Positions 13,502 to 55,495 of a DNA stretch of 64,000 nt are shown one piece after another. The stretch is from a phage. Location: sequence record PZ445427.1; one strand, 5' to 3'. The first letter of the stretch is position 1. Every line of letters starts with the position of its first letter. A program made the translations under genes and the position numbers. The notes beneath the pieces were generated by a model that did not search any database, was not told the DNA's origin, and worked only from the letters and a program-made list of their open reading frames with translations.

Positions 13502-13855
13502 AGACTAGTAAATCGGTAGACGAAAGCCCAAGCATCTTACCTCGCAGCAGCGGTTGAAATACGAGGTTAAATAAGACCGCTGACCATACTATAAAGTATA
13601 ATCTATTGGAGATTATGTTTATTACATCAGACATTTAATCTGACACGTAAAAACAAAAGGTCGTTGGTAGTACCAACACAACTTCAAAGATCAACGCTCA
13701 AGTATGAAAGCTGAAAAGTTAAAAGCACTCAAACTTCTAACCTTCTAAAGCTAAAAGATGCAAAGTATTCGTTGATGATTCAAACCCTAGATCAAAGGTA
13801 CATGGCTCATAAGATATGGCCTGTGGCGCCTCTAGGCTGTTTATCGGTTTACTAG
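13502..13855 (+). other. ORF-free structured region closed by long-range stem (candidate ncRNA or processed 3' UTR)
   Basis: agactagtaaatcgg at 13502.. pairs with ccggtttactagtct at about 13840..13855; no ORF of 60 aa or more and no tRNA motif inside. Confidence 0.3.
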
Positions 13856-13876
13856 TCTCTCAATTTAAAAATGTAT

Positions 13877-21296: not shown

Positions 21297-21325
21297 TATA
21301 GCCCTCGCTTAGAGGGCTATTATAC
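21297..21325 (+). terminator. hairpin, probable terminator
   Basis: tatagccctc-gctta-gagggctat stem-loop, weak U-tract. Confidence 0.4.
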
Positions 21326-21337
21326 AGAAATTTTCAC

Positions 21338-21366
21338 TTGCTTTATATAGAAAATTTCTGTATAAT
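21338..21366 (+). promoter_or_regulatory. T5-type early promoter
   Basis: ttgctt 21338..21343, 17 bp, tataat 21361..21366. Confidence 0.6.
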
Positions 21367-21396
21367 ATATTTATAAATTTGAGAGAGGAATCAAAC

Positions 21397-21701: not shown

Positions 21702-21730
21702 TTGCTTAATGCCGAAATTTTCTGTATAAT
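21702..21730 (+). promoter_or_regulatory. T5-type early promoter driving tRNA cluster
   Basis: ttgctt 21702..21707, 17 bp, tataat 21725..21730. Confidence 0.6.
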
Positions 21731-21744
21731 ATATTCATAAATTT

Positions 21745-23338: not shown

Positions 23339-23403
23339 ATTTATCTAATTTGGAAACATATTTAAAAGTGTTTAAATGAGAATTTTTGAATACTTCTAAA
23401 TAT

Positions 23404-23491
23404 GGGCGTTTATTCCGTAAGTGGTAGCGGAGGGGATTGTAAATCCCTGGTCATTGCGACTCGAGTGGTTCGACTCCATTAACGCCCACCA
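23404..23491 (+). tRNA. tRNA-Tyr(GTA)
   Basis: Acceptor gggcgtt/aacgccc, anticodon loop ttgtaaa, long variable arm, T-loop ttcgact, CCA. Confidence 0.75.
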
Positions 23492-25805: not shown

Positions 25806-26053
25806 AATTTAGGTTTCTGCTTCCTAGAGAACTGACTCCTAGATAAACAAGGCGATGAGTTTCCGGCCGGTTCTAGTCGCTGAAAATCCTCCCGACCAGG
25901 TAGGTGTAAGTAAACGAAAGTTTACTTATTAAGTAAGTCCGACACATCGGCGGGTGTGTTCTAGTACTTAAAGAAGGTCTCGCAAACTTTCTCGCTAGCA
26001 TGAGTTGATAGCTCGGTGACTTACCTAATAAGTAAATTTATTAAAAAATGTAG

Positions 26054-28661: not shown

Positions 28662-28752
28662 GGAAGAGCAAATCGATTAGGTGACGAAAACCGCTTGGAA
28701 AGTGGCTGACTGGTAAAACGGCTTGAGAGTTCGAATCTCTCTTCTTCCGCCA
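28662..28752 (+). tRNA. tRNA-Ser(GGA)
   Basis: Acceptor ggaagag/ttcttcc, anticodon loop ttggaaa, long variable arm, T-arm gagag-ttcgaat-ctctc, CCA; 91 nt. Confidence 0.55.
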
Positions 28753-29219: not shown

Positions 29220-29356
29220 AATCTTGAAGTATGCCGGAATCGGTAGACGGGGCTTCCTAAAGGGCGTAAGGGGAACATCCACTCCTCATAAGATACCCGA
29301 AAACGAGGCTGAGATAAATGGTCTATCTCGTGAAGGTTCAAGTCCTTCTGCTTCTT
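29220..29356 (+). other. unresolved tRNA-like structured region
   Basis: Hairpin gagata-aatggtc-tatctc followed by T-arm-like gaagg-ttcaagt-ccttc; no canonical acceptor stem found. Confidence 0.3.
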
Positions 29357-29577
29357 GATATTCAATGGCTCAAAGAGTAACGGTGCACCTTTCTAGAGAA
29401 TTTCCTGGGCGAGAATCCAGGTGTAATCAACTAGTTGTTAGTGTGATGAGTTTCGGAGAGCCGCCACAATTGAAAATTCGTACTCGTCTTGAGCTTCGTG
29501 CAATAGAAGATAACTTGATTAGTATTCTAGAAAATGCTATTTGAGGATGGTTTCGCTAACCCTGCGAGTTTTCAATT

Positions 29578-29654
29578 GTGGCTATATCATAATTGGTTAA
29601 TGATCCTGATTGTGAATCAGGCCTATGTGGATTCGAGTTCCACTAGCCACCCCA
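29578..29654 (+). tRNA. tRNA-His(GTG)
   Basis: Acceptor gtggcta/tagccac, anticodon stem cctga/tcagg loop ttgtgaa, T-arm gtgga-ttcgagt-tccac, CCA. Confidence 0.75.
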
Positions 29655-55180: not shown

Positions 55181-55206
55181 CTAGGGAACATCTTAAAGCC
55201 TATCGG
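55181..55206. repeat. 26-bp inverted repeat, left copy (partner 55468..55495)
   Basis: ctagggaacatcttaaagcctatcgg vs reverse complement of ccgataggttttaagatgttccccgtag; flanked by 12-bp direct repeat gctctttaaaaa at 55169 and 55501. Confidence 0.6.
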
Positions 55207-55240
55207 CGGTAAACTTATACATTATAAGGAATCGACGATA

Positions 55241-55459
55241 ATGATCAAATCAAAAAACGCTTTAGTGATTAGTGCAAAACCTGCTAGCCCACTGGATAGC
55301 AGAACAAAAAATTTGTTGACAGTAGCGCAACGATCTGTAAAATACAGATTCAAGCAATACAAGAAAGGCAAGCAACAAGGGCTGGAAATGGTGTGGCGTA
55401 ATATAATGATTGATTTATATAACTCACATCAAATCGAAAAAAGTTTAAAAAACGCTTGA
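55241..55459 (+). CDS. hypothetical basic protein (72 aa) bracketed by inverted repeats
   Basis: Track ORF; lies exactly between the 26-bp IR copies. Confidence 0.45.
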   Translation: MIKSKNALVISAKPASPLDSRTKNLLTVAQRSVKYRFKQYKKGKQQGLEMVWRNIMIDLYNSHQIEKSLKNA

Positions 55460-55484
55460 CACGCTAGCCGATAGGTTTTAAGAT
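55456..55484 (+). promoter_or_regulatory. candidate sigma70 promoter TTGACA-17-TAAGAT
   Basis: ttgaca 55456..55461 overlapping right IR copy. Confidence 0.4.
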
Positions 55485-55495
55485 GTTCCCCGTAG
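55468..55495. repeat. 26-bp inverted repeat, right copy
   Basis: See 55181..55206. Confidence 0.6.

What the first reader, a model, noticed from the sequence alone, without database searches (positions are those of the whole stretch)
29455..29585. Long-range inverted repeat sequestering the 5' end of tRNA-His
gccacaattgaaaa (about 29462..29475) is the exact reverse complement of ttttcaattgtggc (about 29568..29581), which overlaps the first nucleotides of tRNA-His (29578..29654). In a primary transcript this 12-14 bp helix would enclose about 90 nt and pair with the tRNA 5' acceptor strand, suggesting a processing or regulatory structure.
Basis: seen in the sequence. Interest (0 to 1): 0.45.

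Follow-up and report, generated by a model that had tools for sequence, protein, structure and literature searches.

The report
Processing helix joining RNA III and tRNA-His
The inverted repeat is a real, evolutionarily conserved 20-base-pair RNA helix that closes the phage T5 "RNA III" stable-RNA gene and ties up the first bases of tRNA-His, most likely as a cutting site that separates the RNAs of one long precursor.

Summary
The repeat is real and longer than reported: 29463-29482 pairs with 29563-29582 (20 bp, two G·U), enclosing 80 nt and covering +1 to +5 of tRNA-His. In this window alone it is only suggestive (about 10% of shuffled windows reach its score). Comparison settles it. All T5-like phages examined keep a 16-25 bp helix onto the tRNA-His 5' end, with 14 different arm pairs, many compensatory changes, G·U but no A·C, and at least five unrelated enclosed sequences. 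No other tRNA in the window has such a helix, nor do tRNA-His genes of three unrelated phages.

The window is an Epseptimavirus. The region is orthologous to three stable RNAs of unknown function annotated in phage T5: RNA1, RNAI and RNAIII. The 59-aa ORF here is spurious. The T5 mature ends fall inside the helix with a 2-nt 3' overhang, as after a staggered RNase III-type cut. That cut would release RNAI (trimmed to CCA), RNAIII and tRNA-His starting at U-1.

Best reading: a precursor-processing stalk, a known kind. The nuclease is inferred. The speculative extension is that the cut gives tRNA-His its extra 5' nucleotide, because no G-1 is encoded.

The parts
29223..29366 (+). Orthologue of T5 RNA1 (T5s03), a tRNA-like stable RNA of 144 nt. 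It is context for the finding, being the first of three stable RNAs between tRNA-Ser and tRNA-His.
   Evidence: Same length as T5 RNA1 and 81% identical. Neither ARAGORN nor Rfam calls it.
29367..29466 (+). Orthologue of T5 RNAI (T5s02). Its closing stem is GGCUC (29367-29371) with GAGCC (29458-29462), followed by G-CCA (29463-29466). That 3' GCCA forms the outermost 4 nt of the left arm.
   Evidence: The T5 annotation ends RNAI at ...GAGCCGCCA. The closing stem and inner stems covary (UA:8 CG:3; the C-N-C/G-N-G stem shows 5 pair types). The MFE structure places the stem directly against the long helix.
29463..29482 (+). Left (5') arm of the long-range helix P1: GCCACAAUUGAAAAUUCGUA.
29467..29470 (+). 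4-nt spacer CAAU between mature RNAI and RNAIII. It is inferred to be left on the RNAI precursor by the staggered cut and then trimmed back to CCA.
   Evidence: T5 shows a gap of 4 nt (CAAT) between the rnaI and rnaIII features. The trimming step is inference.
29471..29576 (+). Orthologue of T5 RNAIII (T5s01), 106 nt. On its own it folds with a 12-bp terminal stem (29471-29482 with 29563-29574) and a 2-nt 3' overhang (29575-29576). Inner hairpins are 29483-85/29491-93, 29494-97/29506-09, 29514-26/29533-45 and 29549-52/29558-61.
   Evidence: 96.4% identical to T5 spacer+RNAIII, with the same length. MFE structure. It matches the covariance model built from the larger 150-nt relatives at 42.6 bits, E about 4e-10.
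29563..29582 (+). Right (3') arm of P1: UGCGAGUUUUCAAUUGUGGC. It comprises the 3' end of RNAIII, U-1 and +1 to +5 of tRNA-His.
29470..29471 (+). Inferred cleavage position on the left strand, between U29470 and U29471.
   Evidence: 5' end of T5 RNAIII transferred to window coordinates. The nuclease is inferred.
29576..29577 (+). Inferred cleavage position on the right strand, between U29576 (-2) and U29577 (-1). It is offset by 2 bp from the left cut.
   Evidence: The 3' end of T5 RNAIII and the annotated 5' end of T5 tRNA-His (U-1).
29577..29654 (+). tRNA-His(GUG). G1-C72, C73 and CCA are encoded. Position -1 is U (29577), not G.
   Evidence: ARAGORN and Rfam give 29578-29654/29651. T5 RefSeq annotates the tRNA from U-1, the only one of 18 compared T5 tRNAs with an extra 5' nt.

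Best explanation
The inverted repeat is the closing helix (P1) of the orthologue of phage T5 stable RNA 'RNAIII'. RNA1, RNAI, RNAIII and tRNA-His are transcribed as one precursor.

In that precursor, 20 nt pair with another 20 nt. The first stretch runs from the 3' CCA end of RNAI into the 5' end of RNAIII. The second runs from the 3' end of RNAIII through U-1 into +1 to +5 of tRNA-His. The resulting duplex stacks on the RNAI closing stem and outcompetes the tRNA-His acceptor stem.

A double-strand-specific endonuclease, most likely host RNase III, makes a staggered cut in the middle of the duplex, at 29470|29471 and 29576|29577. This single event separates three RNAs:
- the RNAI precursor, whose extra CAAU is trimmed back to CCA;
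- RNAIII, with a 12-bp terminal stem and a 2-nt 3' overhang;
- tRNA-His, whose freed 5' strand can then form the acceptor stem.

Shown here: the helix, its conservation by covariation, its RNA-strand polarity, the orthology to T5 RNAI and RNAIII, and the position of the T5-annotated ends inside the helix. Inferred: the identity of the nuclease, the order of events, and that the T5 ends apply to this phage.
For: 1. A 20-bp helix is present in the window. The precursor folds with full P1 at -89.9 kcal/mol, against -80.4 with the cloverleaf enforced (z = -4.4).

2. In 23 loci from five genera or clades, a 19-25 bp helix joins an upstream segment to the leader plus +2 to +8 of tRNA-His. The loci cover Epseptimavirus, Tequintavirus, Sugarlandvirus, Erwinia KEY and Pantoea AAS21, and Pectobacterium My1. 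Vibrio phage phi 3 (Ermolyevavirinae) has a 16-bp helix.

3. Cognate arm pairs score 40-48. Shuffled upstream sequence reaches at most 33, and arms from different groups score 15-35.

4. On an alignment made by MAFFT alone, P1 is 98.5% paired and 9 of 18 pairs change on both sides. None of 500 shuffles reach this, and slid controls are 30-41% paired.

5. The 14 distinct arm pairs contain 252 Watson-Crick pairs, 27 G·U in the + sense, 0 A·C and 3 other mismatches. The covariance model scores the + strand far above the - strand.

6. The helix persists while the enclosed sequence exists in at least 5 forms: 80 nt, 37 nt, 107-118 nt, the AAS21 insert, and phi 3.

7. T5 RefSeq annotates rna1, rnaI, rnaIII and tRNA-His here, with a 4-nt gap between rnaI and rnaIII. 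The window is 96.4% identical to T5 over the spacer plus RNAIII.

8. The RNAIII 5' end pairs with A29574 and its 3' end is 29576, which gives a 2-nt 3' overhang. That is the pattern RNase III leaves (PMC6212723).

9. Two other T5 stable RNAs, RNAIV and RNA2H, also have annotated ends inside long precursor stems. The RNAIV stalk is present in the window at 25918-25939/26018-26039.

10. No promoter is annotated between T5 P13b and tRNA-His, and none stands out in the window.

11. RNase III is reported to take part in maturation of phage T4 tRNAs (PMC4810235).
Against: - No RNA end-mapping or RNase III data exist for this phage. The T5 ends come from a database annotation whose experimental basis I could not read.
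- A 2-nt 3' overhang can also arise from RNase P cleavage followed by 3' exonuclease trimming that stops near a duplex.
- The two base pairs between the inferred cuts are A-U and U-A, whereas E. coli RNase III sites usually have at least one G-C there (PMC6212723).
- In Sugarlandvirus the helix sits 2-3 nt further upstream relative to tRNA +1. In phi 3 it is only 16 bp. The cut geometry therefore cannot be identical everywhere.
- The annotated RNAIV ends give a 1-nt overhang, not 2.
- The helix score in this window alone is reached by about 10% of shuffled windows.
Confidence: 0.6

Rival explanations
1. The helix is only the structural terminal stem of the stable RNAIII, serving as a folding scaffold and protection against exonucleases. 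Under this reading the overlap with tRNA-His is a by-product of tight gene packing. RNase P makes the tRNA-His 5' end and hence the RNAIII 3' end. RNase E or another enzyme makes the RNAIII 5' end. Exonucleases trim both RNAs back to the duplex.
For: RNAIII alone folds with a 12-bp terminal stem. In AAS21 the RNAIII-like RNA keeps its own closing helix even though another element separates it from tRNA-His. U at -1 is the usual RNase P context (own knowledge). The missing G-C pair between the inferred cuts fits RNase III less well.
Against: The helix is kept when the RNAIII body is replaced by a 37-nt hairpin (S114, S113, phiR2-01) or by unrelated sequence (phi 3, the AAS21 insert). Each time it again includes the first nucleotides of tRNA-His. 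That points to the junction being under selection rather than the RNAIII body. The outer 8 bp lie outside mature RNAIII yet covary. The RNAIII 5' end lies in the middle of a perfect duplex, a poor site for single-strand-specific RNase E.
Confidence: 0.22
2. The helix is a regulatory sequestration device. It blocks RNase P and keeps tRNA-His immature until a signal melts or cuts it. Candidate signals are the stage of infection, RNase III activity or a phage factor.
For: The full helix is predicted to be about 9.5 kcal/mol more stable than the conformer with the tRNA cloverleaf. The feature is specific to tRNA-His among the 29 tRNAs.
Against: No ligand-binding or switch-like alternative structure was found. 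No Rfam riboswitch or leader family matches. The enclosed RNA varies freely, which does not fit a conserved sensor. The annotated stable products argue for constitutive processing.
Confidence: 0.1
3. The feature acts at the DNA level. The arms would be terminal inverted repeats or recombination or homing sites that border an exchangeable cassette in the mosaic tRNA region.
For: BLAST homology breakpoints fall at the arms: 29473, 29566/7 and 29445. Different cassettes sit between the arms. In AAS21 an extra element is flanked by a 7-bp direct repeat, AATTGTG. HNH endonuclease genes are common in this region.
Against: Non-Watson-Crick positions are 27 G·U in the transcript sense and 0 A·C. The arm sequences themselves change while staying complementary, which a protein-recognised site would not do. 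The right arm is part of a functional tRNA. The annotated RNA ends fall inside the helix.
Confidence: 0.04
4. The repeat is a chance inverted repeat lying inside a real 59-aa protein-coding gene (29365-29544). Close relatives annotate this ORF as a hypothetical protein.
For: The ORF exists and is annotated in Sepoy, Sw2 and BSP22A. About 10% of shuffled windows contain a helix of equal score.
Against: The reading frame is not conserved. T5-type genomes have a TAA before the left arm and a 1-nt indel near the end. Sugarlandvirus has a 1-nt insertion after codon 7. Substitutions follow base pairing, not codons. T5 annotates the same DNA as two stable RNAs.
Confidence: 0.02

Closest known systems
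Phage T5 stable RNAs RNAIII (rnaIII, T5s01) and RNAI (rnaI, T5s02), annotated in RefSeq NC_005859
   Same: They occupy the same position (tRNA-Ser ... RNA1-RNAI-RNAIII-tRNA-His). RNAIII has the same length of 106 nt and is 96.4% identical. RNAI has the same GGCUC...GAGCC-G-CCA ends.
   Different: The record says only 'stable RNA with unknown functions' and annotates no helix or processing role. In the window's own genus the DNA is annotated as a hypothetical ORF. The middle of RNAI is replaced in the window, giving 66% identity overall.
RNase III processing stalks of bacterial rRNA operons (helices formed by the flanks of 16S and 23S rRNA)
   Same: A long-range helix is formed by sequences flanking a stable RNA. 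A staggered double cut leaves 2-nt 3' overhangs, and the ends are finished by other nucleases (PMC6212723; PMC6582327 abstract).
   Different: Here the 3' strand of the stalk is the leader plus the first 5 nt of a tRNA. The 5' strand contains the CCA end of another small RNA. The stalk is only 20 bp, and the two pairs between the cuts are A-U.
RNase III-dependent maturation in the phage T4 tRNA cluster (McClain 1979; Gurevitz and Apirion 1983; Pragai and Apirion 1981 for the cut upstream of tRNA-Gln)
   Same: This is a phage tRNA operon that also encodes stable RNAs of unknown function (species 1 and 2). Host RNase III is reported to take part in tRNA maturation there (PMC4810235). That a cut in the 5' leader is needed for tRNA-Gln is from my own memory and was not re-read.
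   Different: It concerns a different phage family and a different tRNA. I could not verify whether the T4 site pairs with the tRNA body. No sequence relationship was tested.
Genome-encoded G-1 of bacterial tRNA-His, retained by RNase P because it pairs with C73
   Same: Both concern an extra 5' nucleotide on tRNA-His. The window tRNA has the E. coli acceptor stem GUGGCUA/UAGCCAC with C73 (E. coli sequence from own knowledge; identity rules in PMC9976931).
   Different: Position -1 is U and cannot pair with C73, so the RNase P route to an N-1 end is not available. T5 nevertheless annotates the tRNA from U-1.
Local RNase III hairpins of phage T7 (R1.1 type)
   Same: These are phage transcripts cut by host RNase III to separate the units of a polycistronic RNA (own knowledge; PMC1540722 listed).
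   Different: T7 sites are short local hairpins with an internal loop and usually a single cut. Here the duplex is long-range and uninterrupted and encloses a structured RNA.

Membership tests
Orthologue of T5 RNAIII (stable RNA, T5s01) | Lies immediately 5' of tRNA-His and 3' of RNAI in the tRNA region | tested here: met
   The T5 feature table and the window layout show the same order.
Orthologue of T5 RNAIII (stable RNA, T5s01) | Sequence and length match T5 RNAIII | tested here: met
   106 of 110 positions are identical over the spacer plus RNAIII, with no indels.
Orthologue of T5 RNAIII (stable RNA, T5s01) | Accumulates as a stable RNA of about 106 nt in infected cells | not testable with these tools
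   This needs a Northern blot or RNA-seq of cells infected with this phage.
RNase III double-cleavage site | About two turns (20 bp or more) of mostly uninterrupted dsRNA | tested here: met
   The helix is 20 bp with 2 G·U and no bulges. It is 19-25 bp in 22 related loci and 16 bp in phi 3.
RNase III double-cleavage site | Products carry 2-nt 3' overhangs | tested here: met
   This is met by transfer of the T5-annotated ends. The 5' U29471 pairs with A29574 and the 3' end is 29576. The evidence is indirect because it rests on annotation rather than a mapping experiment.
RNase III double-cleavage site | The two pairs between the cuts are paired and usually include a G-C (PMC6212723) | tested here: inconclusive
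   Both are paired (A29469-U29576 and U29470-A29575), but neither is G-C. This is a preference, not a rule.
RNase III double-cleavage site | Cleavage depends on rnc in vivo, or is reproduced by purified RNase III | not testable with these tools
Conserved structured RNA (closing helix kept by covariation) | Compensatory changes beyond what relatedness explains, on an alignment not fitted to the structure | tested here: met
   On MAFFT alignment A1, 98.5% of cells are paired and 9 of 18 pairs have double changes. None of 500 shuffles reach this, and slid controls are 30-41% paired.
Any Rfam 15 family (riboswitch, ribozyme, leader, sRNA) | Match to a covariance model | tested here: not met
   No hit in 29220-29577 at E up to 1. 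No hit in the corresponding region of five relatives at E up to 5.
Protein-coding gene (59-aa ORF 29365-29544) | Reading frame conserved among relatives | tested here: not met
   Relatives carry stop codons and frame-shifting indels.
Intrinsic terminator or attenuator | Short GC-rich hairpin followed by a U-tract that ends the transcript before the tRNA | tested here: not met
   Only a weak 5-bp consensus match was found at 29552-29568, within the number expected from shuffles. T5 annotates a stable RNA running up to the tRNA.
DNA transposon-like terminal inverted repeats | Symmetric mismatch pattern on both strands, arms conserved in sequence, target-site duplication | tested here: not met
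   There are 27 G·U against 0 A·C. The arms vary but stay complementary. No direct repeat flanks the window element.

The most novel reading that the evidence does not exclude
The staggered cut in this helix, rather than RNase P, would create the mature 5' end of tRNA-His at U-1. This would give a phage tRNA-His with no encoded G-1 the extra 5'-phosphorylated nucleotide that HisRS needs.

If so, every T5-like phage keeps a double-stranded 'ruler' over the tRNA-His 5' end, whatever RNA it encloses. The 40-year-old 'stable RNAs of unknown function' RNAI and RNAIII would then be, at least in part, the other halves of that ruler.

In favour:
- The helix is specific to tRNA-His.
- It is re-created with unrelated partners in AAS21 and phi 3.
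- U-1 is annotated in T5.
- The 5'-phosphate at position -1 is the critical identity element (PMC9976931).

Against:
- Sugarlandvirus has a register shift and U73.
- tRNA-His genes of the unrelated phages KNP2 and Arno18 also have U-1 but no helix.
Probability: 0.13. Interest if true: 0.8.

Novelty: new member of a known kind. Interest (0 to 1): 0.5.

Why it matters
The result gives a concrete, testable role to part of the T5 stable RNAs, which are annotated only as having unknown function. Their paired ends would form the processing stalk of the RNAI-RNAIII-tRNA-His precursor.

It also corrects annotation. In many Epseptimavirus genomes this DNA is called a hypothetical protein. It is better described as two structured RNAs that are not in Rfam, including a 150-nt relative with four covarying helices.

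T5 tRNAs are now known to counter tRNA-targeting defences such as PARIS and retrons. How each phage tRNA is matured therefore matters.

If the cut also sets the U-1 end of tRNA-His, it would be an RNase P-independent route to the histidine identity element.

Tried and rejected
- **Rfam.** Scans of the window (15-33 kb) and of five related loci found only tRNAs and nothing in the leader.
- **Coding reading.** The 59-aa ORF was rejected because its frame is not conserved.
- **Promoter and terminator scan.** Nothing exceeded shuffle expectation, so there is no evidence that transcription starts or stops between the arms.
- **Window-only statistics.** These are not decisive.
- **General feature of the tRNA cluster?** No. 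The other 28 tRNAs score 28 or less at the 5' end and 26 or less at the 3' end.
- **General feature of phage tRNA-His?** No. KNP2, Arno18 and FIfi106 score 16-19.
- **Ribozyme motifs.** I looked by eye for hammerhead-like and other ribozyme cores in the 150-nt relatives and found none. This is unsupported by any model.
- **Model R1 on Vibrio phage phi 3.** It did not recognise the enclosed RNA, so homology of that body is not claimed.
- **Collection scans.** IMG/VR and metagenome scans for the conserved hairpin added only Sugarlandvirus-like and My1 copies.
- **Literature.** Searches for T5 RNAI/RNAIII, T5 transcript mapping and the T4 RNase III papers found no readable primary source.

Full report
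**Observation.** GCCACAATTGAAAA is at 29463-29476 and TTTTCAATTGTGGC is at 29569-29582. The repeat finder extends them to 18 nt at 94% complementarity. With G·U allowed the helix is 20 bp, 29463-29482 with 29563-29582, enclosing 80 nt. ARAGORN and Rfam place tRNA-His at 29578-29654, so the right arm covers -15 to +5.

The window alone does not prove the helix is non-random. Exact 14-mer inverted repeats with loops of 400 nt or less average 0.24 per dinucleotide-shuffled window. The 20-bp score was reached in 4 of 40 shuffled windows. However, among the 29 tRNAs only tRNA-His has such a helix onto its 5' end (score 45, all others 28 or less).

**What the window is.** The region is 99% identical to Epseptimavirus phages (Sepoy, EscoHU1, Stitch), which are T5-like Demerecviridae. 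More than 560 phage records match it. Close relatives annotate a hypothetical protein across the left arm, corresponding to the 59-aa ORF 29365-29544.

**Comparative evidence.** I fetched the leader of tRNA-His from 23 loci. A 19-25 bp helix joins an upstream segment to the leader plus the first 2-8 nt of tRNA-His in every one. The arm sequences differ between clades:
- GCCACAAUUGAAAAUUCGUA in the window and T5 types;
- GCCACAAUUGAAGUCUUUAG in S114, S113 and phiR2-01;
- CCAAAUUUGAGUAUCAUCG in Sugarlandvirus;
- GCUACAAGUGAGAGCUAUAG in Pectobacterium My1 (identified);
- GAUCACAAUUGAACAUCAUUG in Erwinia KEY.

Cognate arms score 40-48. Shuffled upstream sequence never exceeds 33, and arms from different groups score 15-35. 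The distant Vibrio phage phi 3 has a 16-bp helix covering -13 to +3. The 14 distinct arm pairs contain 252 Watson-Crick pairs, 27 G·U in the transcript sense, no A·C and 3 other mismatches. My scoring favoured G·U, so that contrast is partly built in.

On a MAFFT-only alignment of eleven long-form elements, the helix is 98.5% paired with double changes in 9 of 18 pairs. No shuffle out of 500 reaches this, and slid controls are 30-41% paired. tRNA-His genes of three unrelated phages have no such helix.

**The enclosed sequence is variable; the helix is not.** Between the arms there are at least five versions:
- 80 nt in the window and T5;
- a 37-nt hairpin;
- a 107-118-nt RNA with three further covarying helices and an invariant GGAGGUCUGAUCAGCCCUC hairpin;
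- a separate element in AAS21 that sits between that RNA and tRNA-His and forms its own 25-bp helix onto +1 to +8;
- an unrelated 140 nt in phi 3.

A covariance model built from the long form matches the window element at 42.6 bits. The window form is therefore a reduced relative of the long form. None of these RNAs is in Rfam.

**Identity.** The T5 reference genome annotates, in transcription order just before tRNA-His:
- RNA1, 144 nt, 'tRNA-like stable RNA';
- RNAI, 107 nt;
- a 4-nt gap;
- RNAIII, 106 nt.

All three are described as having unknown function. The window carries the orthologues: RNA1 at 29223-29366, RNAI at 29367-29466, the spacer CAAU at 29467-29470 and RNAIII at 29471-29576. 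Spacer plus RNAIII is 96.4% identical to T5 and of equal length.

The 59-aa ORF is therefore spurious. Its frame is broken in T5-type and Sugarlandvirus genomes, and its substitutions follow base pairing. RNAI begins GGCUC and ends GAGCC-G-CCA. Its closing stem covaries and directly abuts the long helix.

**Mechanism.** Placed on the helix, the T5 ends are informative. The RNAIII 5' end (U29471) pairs with A29574, and the RNAIII 3' end is U29576. Mature RNAIII therefore has a 12-bp terminal stem with a 2-nt 3' overhang. The complementary product is RNAI carrying CAAU, also with a 2-nt overhang, plus tRNA-His starting at U-1.

This is the pattern left by a staggered RNase III double cut (PMC6212723). 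The 4-nt gap is explained by trimming back to CCA. T5 annotates tRNA-His from U-1, the only one of 18 compared T5 tRNAs with an extra 5' nucleotide relative to ARAGORN.

Further support comes from three observations:
- Two other T5 stable RNAs, RNAIV and RNA2H, also have annotated ends inside long precursor stems. The RNAIV stalk is the 22-bp helix 25918-25939/26018-26039 in the window.
- In the uncut precursor the full helix is predicted to beat the tRNA cloverleaf by about 9.5 kcal/mol. Cleavage would therefore be needed before the acceptor stem can form.
- No promoter is annotated in T5 between P13b and tRNA-His, and none stands out in the window, which is consistent with co-transcription.

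**Caveats.**
- The nuclease is inferred.
- The basis of the T5 ends could not be read.
- The two pairs between the cuts are A-U, whereas E. coli sites usually include a G-C.
- The annotated RNAIV overhang is 1 nt.
- The helix is shifted 2-3 nt in Sugarlandvirus and is only 16 bp in phi 3.
- RNase P followed by exonuclease trimming could yield similar RNAIII 3' ends.

**Comparison and novelty.** The RNA genes are already annotated in T5, and processing stalks cut by RNase III are a known kind. Examples are rRNA operons and, by report, the T4 tRNA cluster (details from memory). Three things are new here:
- recognition that the RNAI 3' end, both RNAIII ends and the tRNA-His 5' end form a single covarying duplex across Demerecviridae;
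- the specificity of this duplex to tRNA-His;
- its persistence while the enclosed RNA is swapped.

**Speculative reading.** The phage tRNA-His has the E. coli acceptor stem and C73 but U instead of G at -1. The 5'-phosphate of nucleotide -1 is the key HisRS determinant (PMC9976931). The cut might therefore be what supplies an N-1 end. I give this about 13%, mainly because of the Sugarlandvirus geometry and because unrelated phages with U-1 lack the helix.

Noticed in passing
window 25918-25939 / 26018-26039: A 22-bp long-range helix with a 78-nt loop lies between tRNA-Gly and tRNA-Pro. It corresponds to the precursor stem around T5 stable RNA 'RNAIV' (T5s05), whose annotated ends lie inside the same stem. 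T5 RNA2H shows the same arrangement.
   Followed up: partly
window 29223-29466: Orthologues of T5 RNA1 (tRNA-like, 144 nt) and RNAI (ending GAGCC-G-CCA) are present. Neither ARAGORN nor Rfam calls them, and close relatives annotate them as a hypothetical protein. RNAI has covarying stems, and its middle exists in two unrelated versions.
   Followed up: partly
window 29577-29654; L008 854-930; L031; L032: tRNA-His of T5-like phages has the E. coli acceptor stem and C73 but U, not G, at -1. Sugarlandvirus tRNA-His additionally has U73. Unrelated phages KNP2 and Arno18 also have U-1, while FIfi106 has G-1. How these tRNAs satisfy HisRS is unclear.
   Followed up: partly
window 55184-55207 / 55467-55490: This is the strongest long-range inverted repeat in the window (24 bp, score 58). 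It flanks a 72-aa ORF at 55241-55459 on the + strand.
   Followed up: no
window 13502-13522 / 13838-13858: A 21-bp inverted repeat encloses 315 nt with no + strand ORF of 40 aa or more. The left arm contains ATCGGTAGACG, as in the tRNA-like RNA1.
   Followed up: no
L029 (Pantoea phage AAS21) 637-809: An extra element of about 160 nt is inserted between the RNAIII-like RNA and tRNA-His. It is flanked by the direct repeat AATTGTG and closed by its own 25-bp helix that reaches +8 of the tRNA. It is annotated as a small CDS.
   Followed up: partly
L008, L013, L018, L025-L030 (long-form RNAIII relatives): A structured RNA of about 150 nt has four covarying helices, conserved UCUAACC and an invariant GGAGGUCUGAUCAGCCCUC hairpin containing the palindrome CUGAUCAG. 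It has no Rfam match.
   Followed up: partly
window about 28663-28752: Phage Sepoy annotates a second tRNA-Ser here, overlapping a small CDS. Neither ARAGORN nor Rfam calls a tRNA at this place in the window.
   Followed up: no
window 21318-21368 and 21719-21731: There is a perfect hairpin of about 18 bp. Its left arm is also complementary to a 13-mer lying 14-26 nt upstream of tRNA-Ser (21745).
   Followed up: no
window 23357-23373 / 23388-23404: A local leader hairpin ends exactly at +1 of tRNA-Tyr. Its score of 28 is the second highest among the 29 tRNAs.
   Followed up: no
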